From a virus (taxonomy: Duplodnaviria; Caudoviricetes), in IMG/VR virus record IMGVR_UViG_3300042924_001589, positions 1-58,266 of that record: DNA of 58,266 nucleotides. One strand, written 5' to 3'. Shown here piece by piece: positions 1-58,266 of this stretch (within the stretch, counting starts at the first letter, position 1; each line of letters begins with the position of its first letter). The position numbers and the translations under genes were made by a program. The notes below the pieces were generated by a model. The model saw nothing but the letters and a program-made list of their open reading frames with translations, did not search any database and was not told the origin of the DNA.

Positions 1-127
1 CATCAAAATAGTTCCCCCACCCCGTCTGCGAGAACGGCGAGAACGTACCCTGCGTGGTGTTGCCGTTGCGGGTGATGCTGAAGGCATTGGTAGAGGAGTC
101 TAGGAACGTATTGTTCTGCGCTCCGTT
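1..127. repeat. Terminal direct repeat identical to 58140-58266 (circular assembly overlap)
   Basis: Bases 1-127 match the last 127 bases. The overlap lies inside a CDS whose frame continues across the join, and 127 is a common assembler k-mer. Confidence 0.95.
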
Positions 128-36394: not shown

Positions 36395-39300
36395 CCGATA
36401 AAGGCGTCGGCTATTGCGGAAGCAGCCCTTGATGGGATGTCACCTCTTTCTCGCATTACCGGAACGATAGTCATGCGCATATCTCGATCAGCATCTAGCT
36501 GTTCTAGGTAATCGCGCTTTACATCGGCAGGCAGATCGCTGCGAATGATGTCCTCGCGAGTCTGTCGATACCGCTTCAGGTAACGCTCTACCGCCAGAAC
36601 TTCACTCTTGATTTCCAGCAATCCCCGGCGAGTATTCGCATAAGCGTAGTACTCGGCTATGTCGCCTCGCTTCTGGATCTTGTTGAGCGTAGCGACCGTC
36701 TTATCAACTTCATCGCGAAGTTCGTAGAACTCCTGCTGTTGCCGGCTGCCTGCCGTGCCAGCGTTGTAGAAGAAGCGGCGAACAACCGGAAGGTTATTCA
36801 CATCGGTGTAGTCAGCGCGAGTGCCTGCGGTCTTATCGCCAGATGCTTCGCGGATAATCTTGTCGGTCGTTAAGAACAGCGACAGGCCAAGTGAACCACC
36901 GTAGCCACCCGCCAGATAGTCGAGCTTCATCGGGCTGATATTCAGCACACTGCCCAACGCCTTGGAGATTTCTGTGGTGCGTTCGTCGTACTGCTCGGCA
37001 GCCTCGGTTCCTTTATCCACCCAGTAAGGCACGATCTCCTTGCCGGTAAAGCTATCTTTGTTGCGCCACACATCCACCAGCGGCTTCACGATCTGGAAGC
37101 CAGTGACGTCGATGTTGGTTGAGTTGTTCACCTGTCGGACAAGACTATCGCGGAACCCGCGAGCATCCATATCCCCGAACATAAAGTTCAGGAAGGTCTC
37201 TGGAACTGCCTTGAAGAGCATGCCGATTTCGAAGGGGATCGGAATCTTCAGCATCACCTTATCGCCAAGGACAGGCGCAGGGATCAGCCAGTTATCATCA
37301 CGAACCTCACGACGGGTCTTCTTGTACTCCTCGTTGTCCTGCATCAGCATGAAGTAGACGCCCGTGGTGGCGGCCAGCATCGCACCGCGCATCAAGGCTC
37401 GCTTCTGCGTGACAGCGCGATCCTCAAGCCCTTCATAGGGTGAGTACTTGCCGCCGAGTGAGCGGTAGATCACATCGAGACCCTGTATACGGGCGTTCAA
37501 GAACGGGACAGAGGCAGTGACCACCTTCCATATGGGGTTGCCACCACGACGGCTGAAGTTGAGGACTTCGATGGCAGCCTGTCTTGCGGCAGCCTCACTG
37601 CCTGTGCGCTTCAGTACAGCGTTGTAGACAGCCATGCGAGTGGCAGCGTCAGAGCGAGTACTCATATCGCCAAGCCAATCCCACACTCGAGTGACCGCGT
37701 TAGTGCTGGTGATCGCATGATTGCGCATGTCGATACCCTGCTTGCGGTACTGCTTCTTGATGTACTGCTTCAGATCCTGCGGATCAGCAGACATATCGTA
37801 GCCACCGACGATACCCGTCTTCAGTAGGGTGTCGATCTCACCCATGCCAAACTGCTTGAAGGTATCGATGACAGGGACATAGCCTGTGCCGCTGGTGACG
37901 AACGACGAGAGGGTATCGCGAAGCATGTTGGCCATCACGAAGCCCGGATCTCTGGTCACCATTTCACGAAGGACGTTGGCGGGCATTGCCAAGATCTTGG
38001 TCATGGTGTTCAGAGTCGGATCACCGTAGTTCATCATCGACTCATGCAGAAGAGGATCGGCGATCTCGTAGTAGACCTCAATGCCATCCTCGTACACGGT
38101 CTTGATGTAGCTGCCACGCTTGCGAAGCTGAGAAGCTTGCTTGGCCGGGTTCGCGCCGGTGATCTTCCTGGCTTCTCCCACGATCTCAGAGTTACGCAGG
38201 ATGCGGCCAGCGGCCACGTTCTTCAGTCCCGCTTGGATAATCCCGAAGGCGTTCTTGGAGATCATCTCAAACGGATCAGCATCCTCTAGATCCTTGGCAT
38301 TCTCAGACAAGGCTCTGGTGAAGAAGTCCACCTTGGTCATCGAGGACTTGCTGCGGAATCCCTGATCCCGCATGACGGCCTCTTCCATTTCTTGATAGAA
38401 CGGGAAGTAGTCGCCCCACTGCTTCCAACGCTCGGCCAGCTCCTCTGTCAGGATGCCGGTGTCACGTCCAAACTGGATCAGGGTTTTGTTCCAGTTCTGA
38501 TATCCGTTGTACGCTTCGGTGACTTGCGGGAAGTTGGTGTCGATCTCCTCGATCAACTGACTGATCTGCGCATCAGATGGGTTGTCCACCAGACGCACAT
38601 TGTTGGCAGCCATGATGATGTCCCGCAGGGCGGCACGACGGGCTTCTGTGGCAGCGTCCTGCGTCTCCTTCGGCATGTTGCTCAGCTCGAACTGAGCCTG
38701 CTTAGCGCGGTTCCTAAAGCCTTGTACGCGCTTCAGAGTGGAGTAGGTCTTGAACTGCCCCATACCGTTAGGTACAGAACCGTTGACCAGTGGGCCGAGG
38801 ATATTCAGCAAGCCCGGTGTGGATTCATCGACATCGATGTAGCCAGCGAGCTTGTCATTCTCAAACGCACTCGGATCGGCAGCAACGATGTTCGCACCCC
38901 TGACCCACTTGACACCGCCGTAGTTGAAGGCAGATGCCAGCCAACCCCTAGCGCGATCAAGCTGACCCAAGGCAGCACTGGCGGAAGTCTCGGCCAACAG
39001 CATCCCTTCGTTCTCAGTGCCGATGAGTTCGGCTTCCTGACGACGGAATTCGTTGTATCGATCGATCACTGCCTTGCGGAATACGCGGGAGAAGTCATCA
39101 AAGGCAGACTTGAATCCGCCTTCCTTCCAACTCTCTAGGATGAAGATCGCCTTCTGGCCGAACGTCATCTCCTCTGGCTTGATCTTGCCGTAGCGACGGA
39201 CATAATCCGCAATGACGTCGTTCTCAATCGGCTCTTCGGCAATCTCATTGAGCATGAACTGCCGTCCCACATCCGGGAACGGTTCTTCCTTGCCATCCTG

Positions 39301-42300
39301 CTCGAACTTAACCGCAGCAGCAATGGCAGCCCTAGGCGCATTCGGATTCACCTTCGGGATGTAACCTTTTGGTGTGTTGCCGACATGGGACTCTAGGTAG
39401 TCATCGACTCGCTTGTTGTCGGCTGTTGATAACGGTATTTCGAGAGCCAGTGTAGAGGCTTCCTCTTCCGAAAACCCTCCGGCATTTCCAACGGCAGACT
39501 TAACTTGTGTGCCTTCATTCCAAGCGTATACGTCTGAGTAATACGAATACTTCCTGCTTGGGTCTGTTGCTAGGTTTGCTCTCGGCCCGTAGTCAATAAC
39601 TTGTTCCGCAACAAGTACTTCTCCAGGGCGTAATCTTTGAGCTTGGCGGTCAAACTCAAACTTATCGAATGTGCGAATCCCGTCATTTCTAACTCTGACA
39701 GGAAACTCAATTAGTTTGTCCGCTTTTACATAAAGCGGAACCGTTGCCCCAGTCGTGCCATCATCTCCTAAGTTAGGCTGGCCATAAGTCGCCGCAACTT
39801 GAGGGGATGTGCTTGCAAATGTGGCGTAACCTTTTCTTGACTTCCCCTCCAAAGCGCCTTCAGGTATTTCAGGGTAGCCAATAGCCCCTCGATAAAGGAC
39901 GAGCGGTCTTCCGTTACTGTCAACAACTTTGCTATTTCCAAACCACTTACGGAAATTGGCAATGCCCTGAGTTGTTGGATAAATCGGTCTGCCTTCGCTG
40001 TTAAGCTCTTGATCTATGCCAACCTCAAGGTCAGCCTCCTTAAACTTAACAGGGCCGCGAGCGACGTCACCCTTGCGGATAGTCTTCTTGACCTTGGAGA
40101 GTTCCTGATCTGCGAAGTTGAGGGTGCGGATAGTGGCATCAGCACTCGGGTTGAACACCGAGAGTCCCGGTGTGCGCTGCCCAATCTCGCCATCTGCAAT
40201 GGCAGAGAAGATCTGATCTGCCGAGGTAGCGCCTGATCCCTTCCACGCTGTGGCAAAGGAGGTGATGAAGTTGAGGATACGCTGGAAGAGCGAGGCGGGT
40301 TTACCAGCGGCAAACTTACCACCATGCTGTCTCCACAGGCGGAAGCTCTCAGCCACTGCCTCCTCGACGAGTTGCATCTCGTTGAGATTCTTACCCGCAT
40401 AACGGATGCGAACCTCATCGAGCATCGTGGTGATCTGTTTGCCCTTGCCGCCAACAGCCATCAGGCTCTTGTCACCAGCCTGATCAAGGAATGCCTTGTC
40501 GATTTTGGCAGTCCTGACGAAGTTGGAGAGGGTGTTCCACTCCTTCTCGGTGAACATATCGGCTTCACGCATGGCGTGAATAACCTCATGGTCAACCGTG
40601 CCGCTGATACGACGCACAATCTCATCAATGGAGATGTTGGGGTCGTTGATCTGATCGCCGACATTCACGGTAATCGTCTTCTTCAGCGGTGAGAAGTAGC
40701 CCACCCGCATCACAATCTGTCCATTAGGCAGCTTGCGAGTCTTAGCAGCGTCGGTCTCAAGCTGATGCTTGACGAACTTAGCAATTCCGTAGCGGTTCAG
40801 CGCATCAGCGATGATCTTGTCGAATGTAGAAGCAGTGCGTTCCTTCTGTGGATCAGTACCCTGCGCTACCGCTGCTGTTTCGCGAGCATCGATCTCAGCC
40901 TTCACTGCCGGTGTCGGGGACTTCGGCTCAACGGTTTGCTGCTGAACCTGCTTCTCAACTTGCTTGACAGATTCGTCTGTGAATCCAGCGCCACGCAGAC
41001 GAGAGGCAGTCTGCTCGACCGTTTCGTTCTGGATAAGGCCGTCAGCCTTGGCAGTTTTATCTGCCTGATAATCCTGCTCAGAGCGGATCAGCTGGATCTT
41101 GCCGGGAGCAACAGGCTTCACTCGACCACTAAAGAGAAGGTCGCTGAACATCTGCTTGGCGGCAGCACCGGATAATCCAGTTTCCTTTTGAATATCCGAA
41201 ACAGAAAGGGCTGCCGTCTTGCCATCCTTCTCTGCCTGACCGAGCTTGCCCAGCACTGCCTCGAATTGCGGCCTTCTGTACTGCCGCTGAAACAGATTTG
41301 GGAACTTGATCGTCTCTGGCATCGCCGGGTTGTTGGCAATGCGAGTCATCAGGTACAGGCGCTGACCATTGGACATATCTGCCCAGTTCTCAGCACCCGT
41401 CCAGTACTTGGCGTAATCCTTAAACGCCTTGTCCTTGATGTCGATCTTGAGATTCTTATCCTTGCCTAGCTTAGTCAGGGCAGAGGATGTAATGGTTCGC
41501 TTGTTGGGGTTGATGCCGACAGGATCAGCCACGTACTTACGCAGCAGATCATTGGTCTCGGTGATCTGGCCGAAACCCTGCATCATCTCATCGAAGTCTT
41601 TCGGCCCGAGTAGCTTCTTGGCTTCTTCAGGTGAATAGAAATCCTTGAGATCCTTGCGCTTGTCTTTCGGTAAGTACGCAGACACCACCGACTTCTGGAT
41701 CAAACGGTTCTTGGGCGAACGCAGTGATGCGGCCAGTCGGTAAGCCGGATTGTTTTTAACAAGACCGGTGTAGTTCAGAACATTCGCCGCAGAGATGGCA
41801 GCGTTCTGGTCATTGATTTGCCGCAAGCTGGCAAAGGCATCATTGACCGTGGAGTACATGCCGCCGTCAACAGGCATTCCTGTAGTGACATCGACTAAGC
41901 CGAAGCTGCCATTCGGAAGCGGCTGAACTTTGATAAACGAATCTTCGTTCGGGGTGGAGAATCGACCACCTTCCAACTCTGCCTGCACTCGATTGGCATC
42001 GATGCTTGGGATGGCAGCATCCTTGGTGACGCTAAAGCTCTGCTTGATGGCAGCAGTGCCGAGGGCGGGAAGATCTCGGGTAAACCCAAAGTCACCTGCC
42101 ACTGCCATCGCCACAGCGTCTTCCACGCTGCGGCCACGCTGCAGTTCCTCAGTGATATCGAAGTAGCCCTCGCTCTCAGGGCTATACACCATGGTCGACA
42201 AGCCACCCTTGCCATCAGGCGAGGTGAACACCGTCGCTCTAGTGAAACGATCTGGGTTGTTCGCCGGTGATACATTGTAGACACCGTCGATTGTGGGCGT

Positions 42301-43410
42301 GGCAGAGGGAGTGGTGGCCGGAGGCGGCAGCATCAGCACACCTTCTGGCGGCTGACCACGCTTGACCATCTCGTCCATGCGCTGCTTACGCAGCTCTTCT
42401 GCCTGCTCGACGTTGTAACGCTCGATGCGTTGCTTACGGAGCTTTTCCTCTTTGTCTCGGTAGAGCTTGTTGGCGACAGTGCGTCGACCACCCATGGCAT
42501 CTACCACGACATCGGCAATCGCACCGACACCACCGCCCACCATCAGATCATCCAGGAAGGAATCACCCACCTCGATGTCGGCATCGTAGGCCACATTGCT
42601 GACGACGTTCTGCGCCATGCCAGCGAAGCCTTCTTGCAGACCTTCTGCAAAGCCTTGCGAGGCAGCACCCTTGGTCAACCGGATGATGTCATCGGAGATG
42701 GTGCCTGACATCGGGTTGCGCTTATCCAAGCGCGAGAAGATATTCAGCAACGCACTGCCCGTCTCTGGCGTGATCTTGCTGAACAATCGATTGATCGGGA
42801 TCATCTCGGTGGCGCCAACACCCGCACCACCTAATAGGCCAACCATCTCTTGGCCGGCAGAAATCTCAGCGCCTAGGTCACGCTCTTGCTGAATGCGCTG
42901 TGCCTGCTCACCCGCACCGCCAGTGACTGCCATGCCAAGACCAGCCGATCGCGCAGCCACGCCTGTGGCGGAGGCTCCAAGGGCTTTAGCAATACCACCC
43001 GGCATGGCGTAAGTGGCAACAGAGCCAAGGCCAGAGCCGAGTTTGCTAGCGAAGAAGTCTTTGTACGGCTCCTCGGGAGCCAACGCACTTTCGTCTTCGA
43101 TGTATTTTTGCGCAGCGGCAAGGTTAGATTCAAATTCGGTATCTACCCCCGGCGTTACCAATCCCACAGCACCTTGCGCCGCTCCAATCAAGGAGCTAGC
43201 GAAGCCACGTGGGATACCCTTGAAGAACTCGGCAGTACCGCCGCCTAGTGTTTGGTATGGATCAAGCAATGACCCATATTCATCTGGGAATCTCTGAGCG
43301 AGATCCAGTGAGATGCGGTACTTATCTTCCTCAGTGACTACATCCGGCAACTCCAAAAAGGAATTGTCCGGAAGAAGGAATCGCTTCTTCGGGGTCGGCG
43401 TAACTGCCAT
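36391..43410 (-). CDS. Giant internal virion / polyvalent protein (HExxH peptidase-like, ART-like and LPD38-like domains)
   Basis: 2339 aa; DHEVIH + EEAVAE; FRKWFGNSKVVD..G.PL.LY.G; C-terminal NFSRRG, PFLNA.IQG, IP.PFE.G and SP...DY...GY.G motifs. Confidence 0.8.
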   Translation of the reverse strand: MAVTPTPKKRFLLPDNSFLELPDVVTEEDKYRISLDLAQRFPDEYGSLLDPYQTLGGGTAEFFKGIPRGFASSLIGAAQGAVGLVTPGVDTEFESNLAAAQKYIEDESALAPEEPYKDFFASKLGSGLGSVATYAMPGGIAKALGASATGVAARSAGLGMAVTGGAGEQAQRIQQERDLGAEISAGQEMVGLLGGAGVGATEMIPINRLFSKITPETGSALLNIFSRLDKRNPMSGTISDDIIRLTKGAASQGFAEGLQEGFAGMAQNVVSNVAYDADIEVGDSFLDDLMVGGGVGAIADVVVDAMGGRRTVANKLYRDKEEKLRKQRIERYNVEQAEELRKQRMDEMVKRGQPPEGVLMLPPPATTPSATPTIDGVYNVSPANNPDRFTRATVFTSPDGKGGLSTMVYSPESEGYFDITEELQRGRSVEDAVAMAVAGDFGFTRDLPALGTAAIKQSFSVTKDAAIPSIDANRVQAELEGGRFSTPNEDSFIKVQPLPNGSFGLVDVTTGMPVDGGMYSTVNDAFASLRQINDQNAAISAANVLNYTGLVKNNPAYRLAASLRSPKNRLIQKSVVSAYLPKDKRKDLKDFYSPEEAKKLLGPKDFDEMMQGFGQITETNDLLRKYVADPVGINPNKRTITSSALTKLGKDKNLKIDIKDKAFKDYAKYWTGAENWADMSNGQRLYLMTRIANNPAMPETIKFPNLFQRQYRRPQFEAVLGKLGQAEKDGKTAALSVSDIQKETGLSGAAAKQMFSDLLFSGRVKPVAPGKIQLIRSEQDYQADKTAKADGLIQNETVEQTASRLRGAGFTDESVKQVEKQVQQQTVEPKSPTPAVKAEIDARETAAVAQGTDPQKERTASTFDKIIADALNRYGIAKFVKHQLETDAAKTRKLPNGQIVMRVGYFSPLKKTITVNVGDQINDPNISIDEIVRRISGTVDHEVIHAMREADMFTEKEWNTLSNFVRTAKIDKAFLDQAGDKSLMAVGGKGKQITTMLDEVRIRYAGKNLNEMQLVEEAVAESFRLWRQHGGKFAAGKPASLFQRILNFITSFATAWKGSGATSADQIFSAIADGEIGQRTPGLSVFNPSADATIRTLNFADQELSKVKKTIRKGDVARGPVKFKEADLEVGIDQELNSEGRPIYPTTQGIANFRKWFGNSKVVDSNGRPLVLYRGAIGYPEIPEGALEGKSRKGYATFASTSPQVAATYGQPNLGDDGTTGATVPLYVKADKLIEFPVRVRNDGIRTFDKFEFDRQAQRLRPGEVLVAEQVIDYGPRANLATDPSRKYSYYSDVYAWNEGTQVKSAVGNAGGFSEEEASTLALEIPLSTADNKRVDDYLESHVGNTPKGYIPKVNPNAPRAAIAAAVKFEQDGKEEPFPDVGRQFMLNEIAEEPIENDVIADYVRRYGKIKPEEMTFGQKAIFILESWKEGGFKSAFDDFSRVFRKAVIDRYNEFRRQEAELIGTENEGMLLAETSASAALGQLDRARGWLASAFNYGGVKWVRGANIVAADPSAFENDKLAGYIDVDESTPGLLNILGPLVNGSVPNGMGQFKTYSTLKRVQGFRNRAKQAQFELSNMPKETQDAATEARRAALRDIIMAANNVRLVDNPSDAQISQLIEEIDTNFPQVTEAYNGYQNWNKTLIQFGRDTGILTEELAERWKQWGDYFPFYQEMEEAVMRDQGFRSKSSMTKVDFFTRALSENAKDLEDADPFEMISKNAFGIIQAGLKNVAAGRILRNSEIVGEARKITGANPAKQASQLRKRGSYIKTVYEDGIEVYYEIADPLLHESMMNYGDPTLNTMTKILAMPANVLREMVTRDPGFVMANMLRDTLSSFVTSGTGYVPVIDTFKQFGMGEIDTLLKTGIVGGYDMSADPQDLKQYIKKQYRKQGIDMRNHAITSTNAVTRVWDWLGDMSTRSDAATRMAVYNAVLKRTGSEAAARQAAIEVLNFSRRGGNPIWKVVTASVPFLNARIQGLDVIYRSLGGKYSPYEGLEDRAVTQKRALMRGAMLAATTGVYFMLMQDNEEYKKTRREVRDDNWLIPAPVLGDKVMLKIPIPFEIGMLFKAVPETFLNFMFGDMDARGFRDSLVRQVNNSTNIDVTGFQIVKPLVDVWRNKDSFTGKEIVPYWVDKGTEAAEQYDERTTEISKALGSVLNISPMKLDYLAGGYGGSLGLSLFLTTDKIIREASGDKTAGTRADYTDVNNLPVVRRFFYNAGTAGSRQQQEFYELRDEVDKTVATLNKIQKRGDIAEYYAYANTRRGLLEIKSEVLAVERYLKRYRQTREDIIRSDLPADVKRDYLEQLDADRDMRMTIVPVMRERGDIPSRAASAIADAFIG

Positions 43411-43426: not shown

Positions 43427-44845
43427 TTATTGTCCGAGGCCAGCAGAGATATCCTGTGCTGTGGCGAACTGGTTCTGACCACCGAATGGTAACGCGCTAG
43501 TGCCTTTGCCGCGATAGTAATCAGCCTGCGCCTTGAGGAGATCTTGGCGGTCTGCCAGCAACTTCTCGTCAAGATCAGCTGCCCTGCGCTGAATCGCCAA
43601 ACGCTCAGCATCATTTTTGGCTGCCGCCGCACGAGTGGCTGCTTCTTCCCTGAGAGCTATCCGACGCATATCCAGTTCGCGAATCTTAAGATCGGTTTCA
43701 ATTTTGAAACGACCCTCGTCCCTAGCAATAGAGGCTAATTCACGAGCCTCAGCGCGAGTTTCTGCTCGCTCCTGACTCCGAAGCCCCATCATCGCCATGC
43801 GGAAGTCCCGCTCCTCTCGCTGCATCTCACGCTCACCGGCCAAACGTTGACGGGTCAAGGCAGCCAATCCCTTGGCGATATCACCACGCTGGGTAGCGCC
43901 ACCGATGATCTCGCCCAACCCAACCAAAGTCTCAGCACGGCTTCGACGCTCAAAGTCCTCCCGATTCGGAGCGAACTTGTACATCTCACCAGCCGCTTCA
44001 AGGTAGTAGGGATCGGTGCGCTTGCCCGTCACCGCCACTTCCTGCAACTGCTCAATGCCAGCGGGAGCGGCAGCACGAGGCGCAGTCGCCCGAGCTACAG
44101 GCGGGGCAGGCGGCGTTTCAGTAACCGTTGAGCCGCCAACCGGAACACCGCGCAGATAGGAACCCTGCGGGGGATTGACGATGCTAGCTAGGTCGACATT
44201 CTCAGCAGGGATTGATGCAATACCAGGAGCCGAGGACGGCGTTGCCACCGGTGCCTCACCGATCGCAGGTACAGGGGTTCCCTTGAGGCGAGCAAGCTCT
44301 GCCCGAAGAGCCGAGGCATCACCACCCGCCTTTTCAATCTGCTCTATCGAGCGAACCAATCCCACCTCTGAGCGACGAAGAGGAATCATGGATGGAACTC
44401 TGGTCAGAAAAGACCCAAATCGGTAGAAAGGGTCGTCCGGGACACCCTTGCCTTCCTGCATCCGCTTGACCTCACCGCCACTAGACATGGCCTGAACCGG
44501 GGCGGCACCCATGATTCCCACAGGCTCAGCAGGGGCTGCAGAATCCATCATGGGGGCAGCCATGTCCATGCCTGCCTCTGGCTGCATCTGGCCCATATCG
44601 GGCTGTAATGCGGCCTCAGGCGCCATCTGGCTAGCAAACTGAGAAGCCTGCTGCATGGCTACCGGGGGAGCCTCTGCTTGGGCTGCCATAGTCTGCTGCT
44701 GCACCCTAGCTCGATCCTGCTGCCTGCGCTGAATCTCCGATGCCACCAAGAACGGGGGGTATCCCCGCATCGGCTGCATCGCTTCCTGCAGGAGGGCTTG
44801 GTCGCTAAAACTCTCCAGATCTTTCTGCTGGTTAATAAGGCTCAT
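43427..44845 (-). CDS. Putative internal virion (ejection) protein
   Basis: 472 aa, Ala/Pro/Gln-rich with a coiled-coil C-terminus; in the injection-protein cluster. Confidence 0.65.
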   Translation of the reverse strand: MSLINQQKDLESFSDQALLQEAMQPMRGYPPFLVASEIQRRQQDRARVQQQTMAAQAEAPPVAMQQASQFASQMAPEAALQPDMGQMQPEAGMDMAAPMMDSAAPAEPVGIMGAAPVQAMSSGGEVKRMQEGKGVPDDPFYRFGSFLTRVPSMIPLRRSEVGLVRSIEQIEKAGGDASALRAELARLKGTPVPAIGEAPVATPSSAPGIASIPAENVDLASIVNPPQGSYLRGVPVGGSTVTETPPAPPVARATAPRAAAPAGIEQLQEVAVTGKRTDPYYLEAAGEMYKFAPNREDFERRSRAETLVGLGEIIGGATQRGDIAKGLAALTRQRLAGEREMQREERDFRMAMMGLRSQERAETRAEARELASIARDEGRFKIETDLKIRELDMRRIALREEAATRAAAAKNDAERLAIQRRAADLDEKLLADRQDLLKAQADYYRGKGTSALPFGGQNQFATAQDISAGLGQ

Positions 44846-44848
44846 GGA

Positions 44849-46096
44849 TTAGCCCCCTCGCAAGGCATTGTAGAGTCCAAGTCCGCCAACGCCTGCACCC
44901 AGTACTGACTGGAACAAACTCGGCTGCTGCTGGAAGGTAGACACTGTCTGTTGTGGTTGCACCGGCACACCACGCAAGATGTTGGAGTAGAACCCGAGTT
45001 GACCTTGGGTGTAGCCCATCTGGTTCAGGAAGTCCTGATAGCCGACATCGAGCGAGGCTTGGTTCAATGCTCGTTGGCGCTGACCCACGGATTCCTGCTG
45101 ACCCAGACGCTCAATGTCCAAAGCCTGCTGAGCCTGGCCCAAGTTACCCAAGGTCTGAGCAGCAGCCAGTTGCTGCTGGCGACCCGCCAGATCCTGCTGC
45201 AATCCGGCCAGACCAAACTGAGTCTGCTGTTGACGGGCAGCCTCACGCGCTGCCTCCTGACGAGCGGCCAACTCTGCCGACGCCTGACGCTGTTGCTGAT
45301 TGAACTGCCCCGCAGTCAAACCAAACTGAGCTTGAGCCTGACGCGCAGCCTCCTGTGCTTGGAAGCCTGCTAAGCCACTGGCCGCCGCCGCTTGACGAGC
45401 AGCCTCTTGAGTCTGGAACCCGGCCATCTGAGCCTGTCGATCTCGCTCATATTGCTGCATGGCAGATTCGTAGGCATCTGCTCGACCCTTGGCAGTGACA
45501 TCGCCAGTCTGCTCAAGGATGTTACGTTGTAACTCTGATCGCTCCAGAGCCTCGCGGTATCCACCGCGACCACCAGCCTGTGCCGCTGCCTGACTAATGC
45601 CCGTTCTGGCTCGCTCAGCACCCTTCTCCAGTTCACGCACCGCTGCGCTAGTGACTGCCTCTTGGTAGGGCGTCATGTAACGAGAAGCAATCTCTTGGGT
45701 GAATGGGCCTACCGATCCCAGTATTCCCGCCTGATAAGCCGCAGGGCCAACTCCAGCGGCGTAGCCTGCTGAGATATCGGTCGGCGTGAAAGCCGCTGTA
45801 AAGGCTCCTGGCGTGTAGCCCTTGGCGTAGTCGAAAGCACTCGGGCCAGCCTGTGCTGCCTGCGCCGCCACCCCAGTGGCTGCCGCAATCTGGGCTGGGG
45901 TCGCAAGACCTCCAATGCCGGCCTGCGCTGCTCGCTCTGCGGCAGTAAAGTCGGCAAGCCTTGCGCCGGTGTAGGGCTGATACCCCTGCAAACTCTCCGT
46001 CTCTGCACGTTGCAGGAGACGCTCAAAGTAGGGGGCGGCGTACTCAGGCAGTGCCTGTTGGTAAACCGTGGTACTGGTGGGTGCTGTTTCTGCCAT
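44849..46096 (-). CDS. Putative DNA-transfer/pilot ejection protein
   Basis: 415 aa, Gln/Ala-rich; YQPY.G.R.A, YM.PY...V and C-terminal Gly-rich hydrophobic tail. Confidence 0.7.
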   Translation of the reverse strand: MAETAPTSTTVYQQALPEYAAPYFERLLQRAETESLQGYQPYTGARLADFTAAERAAQAGIGGLATPAQIAAATGVAAQAAQAGPSAFDYAKGYTPGAFTAAFTPTDISAGYAAGVGPAAYQAGILGSVGPFTQEIASRYMTPYQEAVTSAAVRELEKGAERARTGISQAAAQAGGRGGYREALERSELQRNILEQTGDVTAKGRADAYESAMQQYERDRQAQMAGFQTQEAARQAAAASGLAGFQAQEAARQAQAQFGLTAGQFNQQQRQASAELAARQEAAREAARQQQTQFGLAGLQQDLAGRQQQLAAAQTLGNLGQAQQALDIERLGQQESVGQRQRALNQASLDVGYQDFLNQMGYTQGQLGFYSNILRGVPVQPQQTVSTFQQQPSLFQSVLGAGVGGLGLYNALRGG

Positions 46097-46107
46097 GACC
46101 TATCCTC

Positions 46108-49100
46108 TTAAGCAGGTAAAACTTTGGCTGAGTTGATGGGTTTCGCCTGCTTGGTTGAACCCGTCTTATCCTGTCTAACGCGAGACATCATCTGTTCAAG
46201 CTTGGTTCTGCCCGAGTCGCTGTTGCCATCACCTAACATGCTGACGACATCAGCGGGGATGATGAACTCCCCCGGTGACACTGCCACCCGTTCGGAACTT
46301 CCAATGACGCCCTCAACCATATCGTCCATGCCGCCAGTATGACCTTCGATCATACCTTCCTTGCGGCTGCCATTCGCAACGGACTCCAGTGTCTTCTCGC
46401 GAAGCTCTCGGAATGCTTTGTTGCCATGAAGGTCAATAAACTTCTGGATGACATCATCGGTTTGATCTTCAGCTAACTGACCGAGGATCGCTGCCTGAGT
46501 AAGTTGGATGAGTCCTCGACTGCCGTCCGTCATCGGGGCTTCTGAGTACTCAGCCACTTCTTCCTCAATGCTTTCTTCGTCCTCGTCCTCGACCTCACCG
46601 CCCTCGTTGTAGCCTTGGATCAAATCCAAATATCCACGAGGGGAATAGGACTTGATCTTCCCGCCTGTGGCTTTGGGTTCGATGCGATCATCGATGGTGT
46701 CGGGTCTGTCGGGGGTTCCCGGGGTTGTTCCGGGAGTGGAGCCGGGTGTGGTGAGATCAACAGCGGGTGGATTGAGGTTCTCAAAGAACATCCACTCAGG
46801 TAAGAATCCGTGTCGGTAATCATCCGTTGCAGCAACATAACGACGCTCTTGACCTTCTGGAATGTAGCCCAAGCCGCCTGTACCAGCGTATCCGCCACCA
46901 CCAGCGCCAACACCGCCGGCTGCCCCGCCAGTCATCGCCCCGGCAAGTGAGCCAAGCAATTGCGATGTGGCTAGATCCGCCAATGCGCCTTTGCCTTTAT
47001 TGATCAAGGTGTCGAGCAATGATGTCTCTGGTTTGGTGATATCAATCTGCTCAACTTCTGGCGTCTTTACAGGCTCGCCCGTAACTGGGTTGACGTTGGG
47101 CTGAGTGAAACCTTGCATAAGTTGGTTGGCAGTCAGGCCTGCCGCTCCGAGTCCGGTGAGAGAAATCGGAAGCGGCCTGCTACCAGTGACAACAACCTCA
47201 TCAAGGTTTGTATCAACTTCTGGCGGAAGCTCTTCGTAAGGTCGGAGCGTAGGCTCCGTGTAGCCTTTAAGTAGTTCAGCAGCAGTTAAGCCGCTAGTTC
47301 CAATTGTGGCCAGATCAAGAATGCCAGGTTGATACTTACTGCCGGTAACAATGACTTCGGCCAGACGATCCTTAAAAGGCTCCTGAGGCTGTTGAGCTTC
47401 CGTTGCCTCAATTTTTCCCTCAGTCAAATCAGGCTGGCCTTCGACTTGGCCATAGATGTCCGTTGGAATATCCGTCATTCCTTGAATCAAATTAGTTGAT
47501 GCAAGAGACCCCGGAACCAATCGCAGCAATGCTGGATCAATCGCCCTGCTTCCTGTAACTACAACCTCATCAAGAGGTGTTTCAAGACCAGTTGGCTGAG
47601 TTGGCGTTGTCTGGGCGACGGTTGTAGCAGGGGCGACTGTGCCGCCAGCTAAAGCTTGGGCGGCGCCAAGTCCAACAGAGCTAATCAGTGCAGCTGCCTG
47701 CGGAATACTCAGTGCCAACTTAGAGGCAATGATGGTTATCTCAGCCAGCGGGACACCGGCAGCTGCCACAGCAGCAGCGGTCGTTCCGGACACCAGACCC
47801 GTTGGCACCACACCAGTCAATGCACCAGCGCCACCGGCAGCGCCTGCTCCGCCAGCGGTTGCACCACCGGCTGTGGCTCCGCCACCTGCGCCGCCAAACA
47901 ATCCCGGGATTGCAGTTGCGCCCATCGCAGCCGCAGCCAAAGCCGCAAGCTCTTTAATCGGCAGTTTGCTCAGCAGAGTCTCTTCTTTCTTAAGACCCAG
48001 CATTGGATCGACATAACCGGCCTGCCCACCAAGCGCAGCAATGTTTCGCTCAATAGCCTGATCCTTTTTGAACTCGTTACCGGGGCCGACATACCGCTCT
48101 ACAAACACATCCTGCGGCATCTCGTTGTAGAACTTGGTGATCTCATCAGCATTCATCGGGCCACGAAGTTCACGCAACTTATTAGCATCAACGATGTTGC
48201 CAATGAAGTCGCCACCCAGTTCACGCTCAGCCTTCAATGCCTCATCAAAGGCCGCGCCGAACTCATTGTTCTTTAGAAGATCACTGATCCTCTGAAGAGC
48301 CTGAACTCGCGGGTTATCTTGAATGGCCTGAATCTCTTCCCGCGTAATCTCTGCAGGTCTTGCCACTTGCTGCAAGGCAGCCGCCATCTCTGGAGAGACT
48401 TCGAAATCGATAGCGGGTTGCTCCGCCTGCGTCGGCGTGGCGAATATGCCAGCGCCAGCCGGAGGCGCTGTAACGCCTGATGTGCCAGTGAAGCCTTGCT
48501 GCAACAAGCTAGGCTCAAGAGCCAGATTCTGCAGCGCCTCTGTCTTACGAAGATTCGCAAACAGATCATCCAGTGCGGCAGTGTTAATGCCAGTGCTTTG
48601 CGGGATATCAGAACCCGGCACAAACAGGCTGTTAATCAATGCTTGATCAATAACCTGTTGTTCGGTCGGAGGTTCCGGCTGATACACCGGCTCTTCAGGC
48701 AGGGTGCGATCTGCAGGCACAGGCTCCTCATTGGTTTCCTGTACCGGCGTTACTCCACCCGGCAGGATCTCATCTGGGATGTATTCATCAAATGAGAACG
48801 GGTCGAAAGAATAGCCATCGTATTTCCGCTCCACCGCCCCACCCTGCGCCATGCCAGGTGGACGATAGTACGGACTCGATGGCGGTAAAATCTGCGGATT
48901 ACGCTCGCGAATCTTGCGGCGGCGTTCAGCCTGATCTTCAAGGAAGTTTTGATACTGCCTTGCGTAGTCCTCTTCGGCTTTGATGCGACCAAGCTCACCA
49001 GCCCCGATCGTAAACGGCAGCATGACGCTCGGCTTTTGCACTTGCTCAAGCAAGTTATCCAAACCGGCTTCACCGGCAGCCTTTACCATCTGAACAGGGT

Positions 49101-49596
49101 TGAACTCTGGAGACTGGAATGCTTCTGAATAGCGTGAGCCGAAGGTGCCGGACTCTGGCTTCTTAAATATGCCGAACTTGTAACCGGTATCAGCGATAGG
49201 TTGGCCAGTGGCCGCGTCTACAGCAGCATCAGGGCCAAGGTCTGACAAGTTCCTGCCAAGGCGACCCAGCGAGGATGACACCAAGCCAGACATGATGCCC
49301 TTCTCAAGGCTGCCACCACCTAACATCGTGGAGGCAGTGGTGGCTAGAAAGCTCGACACACCCGGCGAGAATCCGACTGCCTTGAAAGCAGGGCCGAGAA
49401 AAGCTGAACCCACAAACGGCAGCAGATCCTTAAACTTGAATGCTTCTGGCAAGCCCGTCATCGGGTTCTCGGTAATGCCACCCAAGCCAGCAAGGTACTC
49501 CACTTCACTGGGAGCAACATGCATCAGCATGGTGTCGCCATAGCGACCCTGCTCAGCCAATATCCCGGCAAGTCCTTGCATGTTCTGGTTTGGCAT
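46108..49596 (-). CDS. Putative large ejection protein with TonB-box-like repeats
   Basis: 1162 aa; N-terminal GR.GDT...H....E...L..LGG...NP.TGLPEAF, C-terminal G..D.......S.GEF.IPADVVS.LG.G.S..G, Gly/Ala hydrophobic segments, internal EVVVTGSR repeats. Confidence 0.7.
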   Translation of the reverse strand: MPNQNMQGLAGILAEQGRYGDTMLMHVAPSEVEYLAGLGGITENPMTGLPEAFKFKDLLPFVGSAFLGPAFKAVGFSPGVSSFLATTASTMLGGGSLEKGIMSGLVSSSLGRLGRNLSDLGPDAAVDAATGQPIADTGYKFGIFKKPESGTFGSRYSEAFQSPEFNPVQMVKAAGEAGLDNLLEQVQKPSVMLPFTIGAGELGRIKAEEDYARQYQNFLEDQAERRRKIRERNPQILPPSSPYYRPPGMAQGGAVERKYDGYSFDPFSFDEYIPDEILPGGVTPVQETNEEPVPADRTLPEEPVYQPEPPTEQQVIDQALINSLFVPGSDIPQSTGINTAALDDLFANLRKTEALQNLALEPSLLQQGFTGTSGVTAPPAGAGIFATPTQAEQPAIDFEVSPEMAAALQQVARPAEITREEIQAIQDNPRVQALQRISDLLKNNEFGAAFDEALKAERELGGDFIGNIVDANKLRELRGPMNADEITKFYNEMPQDVFVERYVGPGNEFKKDQAIERNIAALGGQAGYVDPMLGLKKEETLLSKLPIKELAALAAAAMGATAIPGLFGGAGGGATAGGATAGGAGAAGGAGALTGVVPTGLVSGTTAAAVAAAGVPLAEITIIASKLALSIPQAAALISSVGLGAAQALAGGTVAPATTVAQTTPTQPTGLETPLDEVVVTGSRAIDPALLRLVPGSLASTNLIQGMTDIPTDIYGQVEGQPDLTEGKIEATEAQQPQEPFKDRLAEVIVTGSKYQPGILDLATIGTSGLTAAELLKGYTEPTLRPYEELPPEVDTNLDEVVVTGSRPLPISLTGLGAAGLTANQLMQGFTQPNVNPVTGEPVKTPEVEQIDITKPETSLLDTLINKGKGALADLATSQLLGSLAGAMTGGAAGGVGAGGGGYAGTGGLGYIPEGQERRYVAATDDYRHGFLPEWMFFENLNPPAVDLTTPGSTPGTTPGTPDRPDTIDDRIEPKATGGKIKSYSPRGYLDLIQGYNEGGEVEDEDEESIEEEVAEYSEAPMTDGSRGLIQLTQAAILGQLAEDQTDDVIQKFIDLHGNKAFRELREKTLESVANGSRKEGMIEGHTGGMDDMVEGVIGSSERVAVSPGEFIIPADVVSMLGDGNSDSGRTKLEQMMSRVRQDKTGSTKQAKPINSAKVLPA

Positions 49597-56337: not shown

Positions 56338-58266
56338 TTACAGGGTCAGGAACGCCGCAGTCGGCGGGGTGAAGTTGCTGGTGTAACGGGCGATGCCTTT
56401 GGTGATGCGGAGGTCGTCAATATAACCAGCCCAATCCGCGTCACCTGAAATGCCACTTGATCCAATACGAATCTGCGCCGCCGTGCCGTTATCAACGGAA
56501 ACATTAGTGGTGTTTGTAGACTCTAATATCCCGTTTACAAACAGTCGGAAAACGCCGTTATAACGAGTAATAGCAACGTGTTTCCAAGTGCTGTCATTAA
56601 ACGTTGTAGTAGAAACCAACACATCTGCAGGAGAAGCATTATTTATTCCAAGCGTAAATTTGTTGGGGTTTGCTGCGGTAGTCGTAGTTAGAATGTACTT
56701 TCCGCTTCCCCAAGCAGCGCCAGCGCCGTTACCAAACATACGAGCGCCTGTGCTTCCTTGCGATCCTGAGTAAACCCACATCTCAATGGTAAAATCAGCC
56801 GTGCCAAAAACAATGTTTTGAGTGGCAGGAATAGATAGGTAATCCCCCGTCCCATCAAAATACATTGACGACCCGCCGAATTTGCTCTGCGTCGTGCTGA
56901 TCTGCGCGTTGCCCACCGTCTCAAGGTCGTTCTTGGACGTAGCGTCGTAGATGCCTGCGTTGGTTCCGGCCAGCAACAACTGCGTGTTAGAGATAGCGGT
57001 AAGGGGTGCAGTCGGTGGCGTAAACGTGCCGGTGTAAACAGCCGATCCAGTAGCGCGGAAGTCAGCCAAATATCCCGTGAAGTTTTGCGTGGATACCGCA
57101 TCGCCGGTGGTTCCAACCCACCAATAGTCAGCCGTTCCAGTTACGGTGTTGTTACTCGTAAACGTGCCAGCCGAAACGCCGTTGATATACAGCGTGATGT
57201 TGTTGGAGCCGGTTCCGTTACGAACCAACGCGATGTGTGACCAAGCGTTTTTGATGTAATCGGCAGACGACTGAATGGCAGGGAATGTGCCAAACAACGC
57301 TACAACCCATTTGGTTGTTCCAGCAGACGAATGCCCACAGAAGATAGACACGCCCGTGCTAGACGGCCAAGAACTGTAGTTGTTGAAAACGCCTGCAAAC
57401 GCACTTGCTTGCGTCAACGGGTATGCCCAAAACTCAATCGTAAAATTGCCCGTAAACTGCAACGCCGACGTATATGCAAGGCGCAAGTAGTCCCCTGCTC
57501 CGTCGTAATACCCACTTCCGCCATACGTCGCTGCACTCCACGCTGCCGTGGGGTTGAACGGGCTGAAGGCTTGGACAGACACATCACCGTTGCGCGTGAT
57601 GGCAAAGGCGTTGGTGCTGTTGTCTACGAAACGGTTGCTCTGACAGGTCAGCAGGGAGGTGTTGGTGATGGCTGTAAGCGGCGTCGTGCTGGGCGTGAAG
57701 TTGGCCGTATACAAAGCCGTGCCTTTAACAACGCGGATATTGCTTTGGTATCCCGTTATCAGTTCGGTAGTGTTTGCGCTTCGGCCAATAGAGCAACTTT
57801 GATCGCTCCAGTTGGTTGAGTTGCTGACCGAGGCCACTTCGGTGCCATTGATAAAAGCCTTAAGCGTCGTCCCGCTTCTAGCAACAGCAAAGTGATACCA
57901 CTGGTTCAATCCAATGCTTGCGTTGACGTAAACAATGTTAGTGCTGCTATAAACCTGTAAATATCCACTGGTTACAACACCAATAAAGAACCCGGTAGGC
58001 GAGTTGTTTGACGCACGGAAATCAATCATGCACTGAGATGAATTAGATGATGTCAGGTAGAACCAACCTTCTACCGTAAAATCACCAGTTCCAAACTGAA
58101 ACGCCGTATTGTTTGCGGCAGTTAGATAATCCCCTGTACCATCAAAATAGTTCCCCCACCCCGTCTGCGAGAACGGCGAGAACGTACCCTGCGTGGTGTT
58201 GCCGTTGCGGGTGATGCTGAAGGCATTGGTAGAGGAGTCTAGGAACGTATTGTTCTGCGCTCCGTT
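56338..58266 (-). CDS. 3' part of the multi-LamG tail fibre (joins 2161..1)
   Basis: Three LamG domains (FDG.GDYL, FTIE.W, W.H.A, GY.D..RI.KG.ARY..NFTPP); frame stays open up to the contig end. Confidence 0.88.
   Translation of the reverse strand, partial: NGAQNNTFLDSSTNAFSITRNGNTTQGTFSPFSQTGWGNYFDGTGDYLTAANNTAFQFGTGDFTVEGWFYLTSSNSSQCMIDFRASNNSPTGFFIGVVTSGYLQVYSSTNIVYVNASIGLNQWYHFAVARSGTTLKAFINGTEVASVSNSTNWSDQSCSIGRSANTTELITGYQSNIRVVKGTALYTANFTPSTTPLTAITNTSLLTCQSNRFVDNSTNAFAITRNGDVSVQAFSPFNPTAAWSAATYGGSGYYDGAGDYLRLAYTSALQFTGNFTIEFWAYPLTQASAFAGVFNNYSSWPSSTGVSIFCGHSSAGTTKWVVALFGTFPAIQSSADYIKNAWSHIALVRNGTGSNNITLYINGVSAGTFTSNNTVTGTADYWWVGTTGDAVSTQNFTGYLADFRATGSAVYTGTFTPPTAPLTAISNTQLLLAGTNAGIYDATSKNDLETVGNAQISTTQSKFGGSSMYFDGTGDYLSIPATQNIVFGTADFTIEMWVYSGSQGSTGARMFGNGAGAAWGSGKYILTTTTAANPNKFTLGINNASPADVLVSTTTFNDSTWKHVAITRYNGVFRLFVNGILESTNTTNVSVDNGTAAQIRIGSSGISGDADWAGYIDDLRITKGIARYTSNFTPPTAAFLTL
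58140..58266. repeat. Terminal direct repeat identical to 1-127
   Basis: Direct comparison of the two ends. Confidence 0.95.

What the first reader, a model, noticed from the sequence alone, without database searches (positions are those of the whole stretch)
47176..47748. Tandem TonB-box-like motifs inside a predicted DNA-ejection protein: possible TonB-energised injection system
Seen: the 1162-aa protein carries LDEVVVTGSR (47545-47574), LAEVIVTGSK (47335-47364), LDEVVVTGSR (47176-47205) and a degenerate LAEITIIASK (47719-47748), about 53-70 aa apart. The three clear copies follow a Pro/Thr/Glu-rich linker and precede a related helix (SLASTNLIQGMTDIP, GLTAAELLKGYTEP, GLTANQLMQGFTQP). Established: (L)-[DE]-E-[VI]-V-V-T-[GA]-S-R is the typical N-terminal TonB box of proteobacterial TonB-dependent transporters, and group B colicins use their own TonB box to be pulled through the outer membrane. 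Inference: this internal virion protein may expose several TonB handles in the periplasm, so that host TonB-ExbBD (proton motive force) ratchets it, or the ejection conduit, across the envelope. Alternatively it may titrate TonB to block TonB-dependent competitors. I know of phages that need TonB through their receptor, but not of virion proteins with their own repeated TonB boxes.
Basis: partly seen in the sequence, partly recalled or inferred. Interest (0 to 1): 0.9.

Follow-up and report, generated by a model that had tools for sequence, protein, structure and literature searches.

The report
TonB-box look-alikes in phage ejection protein
A large protein that this marine phage probably injects into its host carries three copies of the short tag that bacterial outer-membrane importers use to dock onto the TonB energy motor, so the phage may use that motor during entry, although binding has not been shown.

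Summary
The 1162-aa ORF 46108-49596 (-) carries LDEVVVTGSR, LAEVIVTGSK and LDEVVVTGSR plus a degenerate LAEITIIASK at the stated coordinates.

A matrix built from 30 TonB-dependent transporters (TBDTs) chosen only by their Plug domain ranks the three clear copies 1-3 of 42,391 windows. They score 26.8, 22.0 and 20.7 bits; real boxes score 15.7-38.4, and 20 shuffles reach at most 17.5. In bacterial genomes, 107 of 108 proteins with EEVVVTG[ST]R have a Plug domain just after it. The motif aligns onto the BtuB Ton box.

The motif occurs in 41 of 51 close homologs and 0 of 70 distant ones, in 1-6 copies with divergent flanks. It lies in a stretch modelled without structure, after an uncharged Gly/Ala-rich segment. 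Cultured relatives lack it.

The same motif occurs in tape-measure and tail-tube-cap proteins of other uncultured phages. Earlier notes of this scan report the theme on other DNA.

TonB binding, virion location and host are untested. My searches found no paper on it.

Verdict: a real, selected TonB-box mimic, with the mechanism inferred. Interest 0.8.

The parts
46108..49596 (-). ORF of the 1162-aa protein (P0002), a putative internal or ejected virion protein
   Evidence: No Pfam, PHROG or NCBIfam match. 159 homologs, all from metagenomes.
47545..47574 (-). TonB-box-like motif 1, LDEVVVTGSR (aa 675-684)
   Evidence: Matrix score 26.8 bits, rank 1 of 42,391. This is the most conserved copy in homologs (L675, E677 and V680 invariant).
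47335..47364 (-). TonB-box-like motif 2, LAEVIVTGSK (aa 745-754)
   Evidence: 22.0 bits, rank 2.
47176..47205 (-). TonB-box-like motif 3, LDEVVVTGSR (aa 798-807)
   Evidence: 20.7 bits, rank 3. Differs from motif 1 at 4 of 10 codons, all synonymous.
47719..47748 (-). Degenerate copy LAEITIIASK (aa 617-626), embedded in the hydrophobic segment
   Evidence: 9.1 bits, within shuffle noise. Homologs have PLAEVVITASK[LF]GLTIPQAAAL at this position.
47632..47964 (-). Uncharged Gly/Ala-rich hydrophobic segment (aa 545-655), a candidate membrane-inserting region
   Evidence: Charged residues are 0.00-0.04 per 50 aa. Kyte-Doolittle peaks at aa 549-571, 604-632 and 619-649.
47047..47631 (-). Pro/Thr/Glu-rich linker region carrying motifs 1-3 (aa 656-850), modelled without structure
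   Evidence: pLDDT below 50 and no secondary structure (25-row alignment). Composition.
48007..48339 (-). The longest confidently modelled domain, helical (aa 420-530)
   Evidence: 10-residue block means of pLDDT 62-90, nine of the eleven blocks 73-90. Conserved in close homologs. No fold match.
46867..46989 (-). Second Gly/Ala-rich segment (aa 870-910), after the motif region
46111..46374 (-). C-terminal module (aa 1075-1162, ..VSPGEFIIPADVVSMLGDGNSDSG..)
   Evidence: Conserved in the 25-row alignment. The DGEYV[IM]D pattern was used. Shared with the DSL-LC04 syntenic protein (E 0.016).
49423..49584 (-). N-terminal segment (aa 5-58) shared with the syntenic protein of phage DSL-LC04
   Evidence: 40% identity, E 7e-7
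44849..46096 (-). Downstream neighbour, 415 aa, PHROG 4287 'DNA ejection protein'
   Evidence: E 8.6e-11

Best explanation
The window is a complete 58-kb genome of an uncultured marine podophage related to Pelagibacter phage HTVC023P, Roseobacter phage CRP-901 and phage DSL-LC04. ORF 46108-49596 most likely encodes an internal virion protein that leaves the capsid through the tail at the start of infection.

Its middle part has an uncharged Gly/Ala-rich hydrophobic segment. A flexible Pro/Thr-rich region follows, and it displays three short linear motifs, L-[DA]-E-V-[VI]-V-T-G-S-[RK], plus one degenerate copy. These motifs cannot be told apart by sequence from the TonB box of proteobacterial TonB-dependent transporters.

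Inferred mechanism: once this region reaches the periplasm, the C-terminal domain of host TonB captures a motif by beta-strand pairing, as it does with transporters and with group B colicins and pyocins. TonB-ExbBD would then use the proton motive force to hold or pull the polypeptide inward. That would help extract the unfolded protein from the virion and anchor the nascent DNA conduit towards the inner membrane. Several boxes 53-70 aa apart would give successive handles.

Shown here: the motif's identity with TonB boxes, its repetition, its conservation against divergent flanks, and its placement in a region with no confidently modelled structure.

Inferred only: virion location, periplasmic exposure, TonB binding and energy coupling.
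For: 1. Motif identity.
- In 103 of the 115 frames closed at the 5' end, the motif lies within the first 110 residues (median residue 51), after a signal peptide.
- I dropped 14 matches that had fewer than 200 aa downstream. Of the other 108, 107 have a Pfam Plug domain right after the motif.
- An unbiased set of 30 TBDTs from three marine Gammaproteobacteria shows the same [LI][ED]E[VI][VI][VI]T[GAS]x[RK] box.
- The matrix built from that set ranks the three phage motifs first, second and third in the whole genome, inside the range of real boxes and above all 20 shuffles.
- HMMER aligns EEVVVTGSRIQR of such a TBDT onto BtuB residues 6-17 (DTLVVTANRFEQ) and onto Cir ETMVVTASSVEQ. The BtuB chain of entry 2gsk is among the hits.

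2. Selection.
- 41 of 51 close homologs (P0002-P0052) have at least one motif of 17.6 bits or more, and 0 of 70 distant homologs (P0053-P0122) do.
- There are 95 instances, in 1-6 copies per protein.
- The flanks fall into at least four unrelated classes while the core stays.
- Copies 1 and 3 differ at synonymous sites.
- There is no DNA or translated similarity to 150 TBDT loci beyond the motif itself, about 20-24 nt.

3. Accessibility. AlphaFold2 gives pLDDT below 50 and no secondary structure across aa 537-1022. The motifs directly follow a 110-aa uncharged hydrophobic stretch.

4. Context.
- The gene is in the late operon next to a PHROG 4287 'DNA ejection protein'.
- Its terminal modules are shared with the syntenic gene of DSL-LC04.

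5. Recurrence in other proteins that enter the periplasm first.
- 22 of the 48 IMG/VR stretches with [DE]EVVVTG.. are not relatives of this protein.
- They include three tape-measure proteins (L299, L311, L313).
- They include baseplate tail-tube caps (L133 and L295, 57% identical with the motif kept).
Against: - No binding or genetic evidence of any kind exists here.
- The host is unknown, so neither its TonB nor its TBDT box type is known.
- Virion location rests on gene order only. The protein has no detectable homology to characterised ejection proteins.
- The cultured relatives examined have no such motif in six frames. They are HTVC023P (whole genome), Caulobacter phage RW (12400-62362 of 62362), CRP-901 (3100-53013 of 53013) and DSL-LC04 (1-50000 of 61547). 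Caulobacter is rich in TBDTs of this box type, so the motif is not needed by this phage group as a whole.
- 10 of 51 close homologs lack a motif above threshold.
- In some homologs the later copies read EVVVKG, EVVVEG or EVVIETT. This changes the Thr that 21 of the 30 real boxes keep.
- The residue after [KR] is P, A or Y in the phage, against mostly R or I in TBDTs.
- Low pLDDT with a 25-row alignment may reflect missing information rather than disorder.
- The entropy comparison is biased, because the units were selected by the motif score.
Confidence: 0.45

Rival explanations
1. The motif is a strand-forming short linear motif used inside the phage's own machinery, for example for packing against the portal or core, or for strand-to-strand oligomerisation of the ejected proteins into the trans-envelope conduit. 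Its likeness to TonB boxes would then be convergence on a good edge-strand sequence and would not involve TonB.
For: - In some homologs the repeats form regular arrays: a 48-aa period in P0034 and P0040, and a 37-aa period in L180 and L181. Their later copies drift to EVVIETT or EVVVKG, as expected of a structural repeat.
- A second conserved position (Leu, 0.67) lies 6 residues after the basic residue.
- Relatives that infect TBDT-rich Caulobacter do without the motif.
Against: - Outside phages the 9-residue word is almost diagnostic of TBDT N-termini (107 of 108), so it is not a generic strand.
- The match extends to the L/I before the acidic pair and to the G-S/T-R/K after it, which a plain beta-strand would not require.
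- The flanks are unrelated between subfamilies.
- The region is not modelled as a folded repeat.
- The same word recurs in unrelated proteins that enter the periplasm: tape measures and tube caps.
Confidence: 0.25
2. The boxes bind TonB to occupy it, and they do not drive import. The injected protein would titrate or block TonB. That would shut down TonB-dependent uptake, or exclude TonB-dependent competitors such as other phages and bacteriocins. Alternatively it would use TonB only as a passive periplasmic docking point, as filamentous phage g3p uses TolA (recalled).
For: The sequence evidence is the same as for the best explanation. Several boxes per molecule raise avidity.
Against: - Podophage virions carry few copies of each ejection protein (recalled knowledge of T7 and P22, not tested here), which is a poor match for titrating a cellular pool.
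- Placement right after a membrane-inserting segment of a structural-module protein fits an entry role better than a takeover role.
Confidence: 0.15
3. The motifs are leftovers of a captured piece of a host transporter gene and have no function of their own.
For: The peptide is identical to host-type boxes.
Against: - No Plug domain or other TBDT similarity follows the motifs.
- The motifs are kept in 41 of 51 homologs, in varying copy number and with divergent flanks.
- The copies differ at synonymous sites.
Confidence: 0.03

Closest known systems
TonB box (Ton box) of TonB-dependent outer-membrane transporters, e.g. BtuB DTLVVTA, Cir ETMVVTA, and the [LI]EEVVVTG[ST]R form of marine Gamma- and Alphaproteobacteria
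   Same: The same 9-10-residue word. It scores within the range of real boxes and aligns position by position with the BtuB and Cir boxes through a marine TBDT. It lies in a flexible segment.
   Different: It is not at the N-terminus of a Plug and barrel protein (no Plug). It is internal, repeated three or four times, and encoded by a phage. P, A or Y follows the basic residue, where TBDTs mostly have R or I.
TonB boxes in the disordered translocation domains of group B colicins and pyocins (colicins B, Ia, M; pyocin S2), recalled and not fetched here
   Same: A foreign protein carries its own TonB box in an unstructured region, so that TonB and the proton motive force pull it across the envelope. 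This is the mechanism proposed here.
   Different: Bacteriocins carry one box near the N-terminus and thread it through a transporter. Here there are several boxes in the middle of a putative virion protein, which would arrive through the phage tail. There is no receptor-binding or killing domain.
Filamentous phage g3p binding TolA (recalled)
   Same: A virion protein engages the periplasmic domain of an inner-membrane energy transducer during entry.
   Different: The transducer differs (TolA versus TonB). g3p binds through a folded domain, whereas the element here is a short linear motif. The virus type also differs.
Podophage ejection proteins (T7 gp14/15/16, P22 gp7/16/20) and the syntenic DSL-LC04 gene annotated 'tail tape measure protein'
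   Same: Position at the end of the structural module, large size, hydrophobic and Gly-rich segments, and a neighbour in PHROG 4287. The N- and C-terminal modules are shared with the DSL-LC04 gene.
   Different: No sequence or fold similarity to the characterised proteins. The DSL-LC04 gene and the other cultured relatives lack the motif region.
TonB-dependent phages such as T1 and phi80 (recalled)
   Same: Infection is coupled to TonB and an energised membrane.
   Different: In those phages the dependence runs through the receptor FhuA and its own TonB box. No box on a phage protein is described in the papers listed by my searches.

Membership tests
TonB box (functional motif class) | Sequence fits the TonB-box consensus of TonB-dependent transporters | tested here: met
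   Matrix from 30 TBDTs picked by Plug match: 26.8, 22.0 and 20.7 bits against 15.7-38.4 for real boxes and at most 17.5 in 20 shuffles. 107 of 108 bacterial proteins with the word are TBDTs. Aligns to the BtuB and Cir boxes.
TonB box (functional motif class) | Lies in a flexible segment that is exposed to the periplasm | tested here: inconclusive
   AlphaFold2 gives pLDDT below 50 and no secondary structure for aa 537-1022, but the alignment has only 25 rows. Periplasmic exposure cannot be tested here.
TonB box (functional motif class) | Binds the C-terminal domain of TonB by strand pairing | not testable with these tools
   Needs a binding assay or a structure with the host's TonB. The host is unknown.
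TonB box (functional motif class) | Function depends on TonB-ExbBD and the proton motive force | not testable with these tools
   Needs a cultured host and tonB or exbBD mutants.
TonB-dependent transporter (Plug and beta-barrel) | Plug domain (PF07715) directly after the box | tested here: not met
   No Pfam or NCBIfam family matches P0002 or the 191-aa segment, even at E up to 10 for NCBIfam. No similarity to 150 TBDT loci beyond the motif.
Podophage ejection (internal virion) proteins | Gene in the late structural module beside known ejection-protein genes | tested here: met
   The neighbour 44849-46096 is PHROG 4287 'DNA ejection protein'. Synteny with the DSL-LC04 late structural block that runs from the 'stabilization protein' gene to the 'DNA transfer protein' gene.
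Podophage ejection (internal virion) proteins | Homology to a characterised ejection protein | tested here: not met
   0 PHROG and 0 Pfam families. No match in 50,697 phage records. Fold searches gave nothing usable.
Podophage ejection (internal virion) proteins | Present in virions and released at infection | not testable with these tools
   Needs virion proteomics; there is no cultured isolate.
Tail tape measure protein | Profile match to tape-measure families, in a long-tailed phage | tested here: not met
   P0002 has no PHROG match. Only a distant relative (L287) has weak C-terminal tape-measure hits (E 2e-6). The 'tape measure' label of the DSL-LC04 gene is an annotation. The relatives by portal are mostly described as short-tailed (recalled).

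The most novel reading that the evidence does not exclude
Phages of several unrelated architectures have independently placed host-type TonB boxes on the proteins that leave the tail first. These are podophage ejection proteins as here, tape-measure proteins of long-tailed phages, and tail-tube caps of T4-like phages. The host TonB-ExbBD motor then grabs these proteins in the periplasm and uses the proton motive force to pull them, and the DNA conduit they build, across the envelope. This would be a general, colicin-like, host-energised step of phage entry that has not been described.
Probability: 0.3. Interest if true: 0.9.

Novelty: new variant of a known kind. Interest (0 to 1): 0.8.

Why it matters
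How the first proteins and the DNA of tailed phages cross the periplasm, and what pays for it, is still largely open. This is most acute for short-tailed phages, which must expel large unfolded proteins through a narrow tail.

Bacteriocins are known to use TonB through their own TonB box. Phages are known to depend on TonB only through their receptors. A phage virion protein with its own repeated TonB boxes would give a concrete, testable energy source and docking point for ejection. It would add TonB to TolA as an envelope motor used directly by virion proteins. It would also predict a new route to phage resistance and host-range limits, through TonB-ExbBD variants.

The motif is short, easy to score and easy to mutate. 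It recurs in several phage lineages, so the idea can be tested in any cultured carrier.

Tried and rejected
1. Family searches. Pfam, PHROGs and NCBIfam gave no family for P0002 or for the 191-aa segment.

2. tblastn of P0002 against 50,697 phage records gave no match at E 1e-5.

3. Co-fold. I co-folded the C-terminal domain of a stand-in TonB with P0002 aa 660-705, both given as alignments. The TonB was Congregibacter brevis, L143:1141-1746, aa 105-201. The scores were 0.28 and 0.30 against a mark of 0.32, and the controls were not run. The tool's verdict is 'no answer'. I count it neither for nor against binding. The host is unknown, so this TonB was a guess.

4. AlphaFold2 of the whole protein gave mean pLDDT 42.9. 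It is useful only to say that the motif region is not modelled as folded. Foldseek against the PDB found no match at E 0.001 or better. Against BFVD it gave three rows below E 0.001, but with TM-scores of about 0.05, which are meaningless.

5. phmmer of the 191-aa segment against PDB sequences gave only a chance hit at E 0.8.

6. Host inference failed:
- there are no tRNA genes;
- GC is 49-58%;
- cluster members of five homologs carry no organism names;
- The genome search does not draw relatives for a virus record (an error message);
- TonB_C is absent from the phage itself.

7. The second motif noted by the scan, in the 472-aa neighbour (QEVAVTGKR at 44018-44047), scores 8.4 bits, within shuffle noise. 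In its family of 42 proteins the best score is 12.1, and x[ED]VxVTGKR is kept in 15 of 42. I do not count it as a TonB box. blastp found no homolog of that protein in the 80 viral loci.

8. CRP-901 gp72 (LysM) and HTVC023P gp83 are not detectable homologs of P0002.

9. A captured TBDT fragment is rejected.

10. Literature. For every paper I saw only the search listing and the start of the abstract. I read no paper, and supplements are closed.
- 'TonB box' + 'phage' + 'virion protein' gave 0 papers.
- 'TonB box' + 'virion' gave 1 paper, on T5 and FhuA.
- mixed term sets. The only listed papers that hold 'TonB box' are the two T5/FhuA papers, one on gating of TonB-dependent transporters and a Tol-Pal review.
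- 'tape measure protein' + 'TonB' gave 41 papers, 25 listed. None is about a box on a phage protein, judging by title and abstract start.
- Subscription journals are mostly outside that library.

Statements about the following are recalled and come from no call: BtuB residues 6-12 being the Ton box and pairing with TonB in 2GSK; colicin and pyocin TonB boxes; g3p-TolA; T1 and phi80; copy numbers of ejection proteins; and the short tails of the relatives.
Full report
**What the window is**

The window is a complete virus record of 58,266 bp with direct terminal repeats. GC is about 52% and there are no tRNA genes.

PHROG matches identify a large terminase, portal, head protein, primase/helicase and several virion structural proteins. 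By portal protein the nearest cultured phages are Pelagibacter phages HTVC023P and HTVC027P, phage DSL-LC04, some freshwater cyanophages, Roseobacter phages CRP-901 and CRP-902, and Caulobacter phages RW, GB2A and KcrB. All are below 47% identity.

The finding lies in ORF 46108-49596 on the minus strand (1162 aa, P0002), near the end of the late operon. Upstream lie two 'virion structural proteins' and a 111-aa protein. Downstream lie a PHROG 4287 'DNA ejection protein', a 472-aa protein and a 2339-aa protein.

**The observation**

All four peptides are present at the coordinates given, in frame, 58, 70 and 53 residues apart. The two identical LDEVVVTGSR copies use different codons at 4 of 10 positions.

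**Is it really a TonB box by sequence?**

I tested this in three ways that do not rest on memory.

1. I scanned one genome per prokaryote species for the DNA pattern encoding EEVVVTG[ST]R.
They come from Caulobacter, Brevundimonas, Phenylobacterium, Halieaceae, Porticoccaceae, SAR86, Pseudohongiella, Microbulbifer, Steroidobacter, Woeseiaceae and others.
- In 103 of the 115 frames with a closed 5' end, the motif lies in the first 110 residues (median 51), just after a signal peptide.
- I dropped 14 matches with fewer than 200 residues downstream. Of the other 108, 107 have a Plug domain directly after the motif.

2. To avoid circularity I took 30 transporters chosen only by a Plug match, from three marine gammaproteobacterial genomes that hold 31, 20 and 24 Plug matches.
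- Their boxes read [LI][ED]E[VI][VI][VI]T[GAS]x[RK].
- A 13-residue log-odds matrix built from them ranks the three phage motifs first, second and third among 42,391 windows in all open frames of the genome.
- They score 26.8, 22.0 and 20.7 bits.
- The 30 real boxes score 15.7-38.4 on their own matrix, and the best window in each of 20 shuffles scores 6.1-17.5.
- The degenerate copy (9.1 bits) and the motif in the 472-aa neighbour (8.4 bits) are not significant on their own.

3. HMMER aligns EEVVVTGSRIQR of a Congregibacter transporter onto BtuB residues 6-17 (DTLVVTANRFEQ) and onto Cir ETMVVTASSVEQ. The BtuB chain of the TonB complex entry 2gsk is among the hits. That BtuB 6-12 is the Ton box that pairs with TonB is recalled knowledge.

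**Is it selected?**

A search of 5.8 billion proteins found 159 relatives, all unnamed and from metagenomes. The best 120 were listed and examined, so 39 were not seen.

- With the matrix and a threshold of 17.6 bits (above every shuffle), 41 of the 51 closest proteins have at least one motif. None of the 70 distant ones do; those share only the terminal modules.
- Copy numbers over all 121 proteins are 0 (80 proteins), 1 (17), 2 (5), 3 (10), 4 (8) and 6 (1), which makes 95 instances.
- The core PL[ED]EVVVTG[STN][KR] is kept while what follows falls into unrelated classes. Examples are AIDPALLRLVPGSLASTNLIQG..DIPTDIYG, YQPGILDL..GGLTAAELLKGFTEP, PPL..LLGLG..VPTTTPVDLP at an exact 48-residue period, and APVIPP...
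- Some homologs have one canonical copy followed by drifted copies such as PLDEVVIETTKPT or EEVVVKGSK.
- The entropy profile shows the contrast between core and flanks, but it is biased because the units were picked by motif score.
- blastn and tblastx of the region against 150 transporter loci find nothing beyond the 20-24 nt of the motif, so this is not a captured gene fragment.

**Where the motif sits in the protein**

- Residues 545-655 are almost free of charge, rich in Gly and Ala, and have three hydropathy peaks.
- The motifs follow at once, in a Pro/Thr/Glu-rich stretch.
- A second Gly-rich segment and a conserved C-terminal module come after.
- AlphaFold2 with a 25-row alignment models a helical domain at 420-530 and a few other helices with confidence. 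Residues 537-1022 are almost all below pLDDT 50 (all but three residues), with no secondary structure at the motifs.
- So the motifs are not modelled as buried in a fold, with the caveat of a shallow alignment.

**Is it an ejection protein?**

The evidence is contextual.

- The neighbour matches a PHROG ejection family.
- The syntenic 759-aa gene of DSL-LC04, annotated 'tail tape measure protein', lies in that phage's late structural block downstream of the 'stabilization protein' gene and three genes upstream of its 'DNA transfer protein'. It shares the N-terminal segment (E 7e-7) and the C-terminal module (E 0.016).
- No characterised ejection protein is detectably related.

**What counts against a necessary role**

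- HTVC023P, Caulobacter phage RW, CRP-901 and DSL-LC04 have no such motif in six frames over the parts examined.
- Ten close homologs lack it.

**Recurrence elsewhere**

- The pattern for [DE]EVVVTG.. hits 48 stretches of IMG/VR.
- 26 of them are relatives of this protein and 22 are not.
- I scanned 10 proteins from those 22 stretches against PHROGs. Three are tape-measure proteins (L299, L311, L313). Two are baseplate tail-tube caps (L133, with two tandem copies, and L295). One is a head-morphogenesis protein, one a tail sheath, one a weak tail-fibre-assembly match that stands for a six-member family, and two match nothing.
- Four of the 22 stretches (L128, L290, L293, L308) were neither scanned nor matched by eye to a scanned protein. 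L288 looks the same as L295 by eye, and L303 and L309 look the same as L286.
- L133 and L295 are 57% identical and keep the motif while the next residues differ.
- Most of these extra hits also have L, I or V before the acidic pair. The DNA pattern did not require that, and real boxes show it.
- Earlier notes of this scan report TonB-box look-alikes on a T4-like phage's tape-measure-slot protein, on sphingomonad prophage tape measures, on tail-tip proteins of freshwater T4-like phages, and on a homolog of this very protein in another window. Those notes are unchecked AI notes. My IMG/VR result is an independent observation of the same theme.

**Mechanism**

The best-supported reading is a TonB-box mimic on a protein that enters the periplasm first. 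The inferred chain is exposure in the periplasm, capture by TonB's C-terminal domain, then anchoring or pulling driven by ExbBD. This is modelled on group B colicins and pyocins (recalled). None of these steps is shown here.

The rivals are an internal structural strand motif, TonB blocking or passive docking, and a functionless remnant. Each is given above with its evidence and what would refute it.

**Novelty**

I found no paper describing a TonB box on a phage virion, ejection or tape-measure protein in the held library (listings and abstract starts only). Because bacteriocins already use this trick, I rate it a new variant of a known kind. It would be new for phages if the binding is confirmed.

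Noticed in passing
window 44018-44047 (472-aa ORF 43427-44845, minus strand): IEQLQEVAVTGKRTD follows an Ala/Pro-rich linker, as an earlier scan note said. x[ED]VxVTGKR is kept in 15 of 42 family members. It scores only 8.4 bits (family maximum 12.1) on the TonB-box matrix, within shuffle noise, so it is a conserved motif but not a convincing TonB box.
   Followed up: yes
IMG/VR loci L299:2-2989, L311:8228-9604, L313:5743-7671: Three tape-measure proteins of unrelated uncultured phages carry L[DE]EVVVTG[ST][KR] or IEEVVVTGTK inside the protein.
   Followed up: partly
IMG/VR loci L133:2-1255, L295:866-2095 (and L288): Baseplate tail-tube cap proteins (PHROG 230) carry the motif just before the conserved domain. 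L133 has two tandem copies (QEVTVTGTR, then EEVVVTGRR). L133 and L295 are 57% identical and both keep it.
   Followed up: partly
IMG/VR loci L126, L127, L130, L131, L134, L135: A family of proteins of about 190 aa (..ITYPQQWLAQATPEQKAAIGLEEVVVTGSRADDRFYW..) carries the exact word. It has only a weak PHROG 'tail fiber assembly' match (E 0.0046).
   Followed up: partly
IMG/VR loci L180:5844-8798 and L181:3225-5816: These homologs have one canonical PLEEVVVTGSK followed by four drifted copies (PL[DE]EVV[IV]ETTKPT) at a 37-residue period.
   Followed up: no
window 47632-47964 (aa 545-655 of the 1162-aa protein): A 110-residue stretch almost without charged residues, up to 70% Gly and Ala per 50-aa bin, with three hydropathy peaks. 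It resembles glycine-zipper-like membrane-inserting segments. A paper on glycine zippers in T6SS effectors that also mentions tape-measure proteins appeared in a search listing only (PMC10240207).
   Followed up: partly
window 46111-46374 and 49423-49584: The C-terminal module (..SPGEFIIPADVVSMLGDGNSDSG..) and a short N-terminal segment are what this protein shares with the DSL-LC04 syntenic protein. The C-terminal module is also conserved in the 25-row alignment and gave the DGEYV[IM]D pattern. They may be the parts that tie the protein to the virion.
   Followed up: partly
window 2-2161 and 56338-58266 (minus strand): An ORF rich in Laminin_G_3 (concanavalin-like lectin) domains runs off both ends of the record. 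It is either one gene across the terminal repeat or is duplicated by it.
   Followed up: no
window 36391-43410 (minus strand): A 2339-aa protein at the end of the ejection cluster matches only PHROGs of unknown function over its last 700 residues. An earlier scan note suggests an ADP-ribosyltransferase-like insert at 39480-40030, which I did not check.
   Followed up: no
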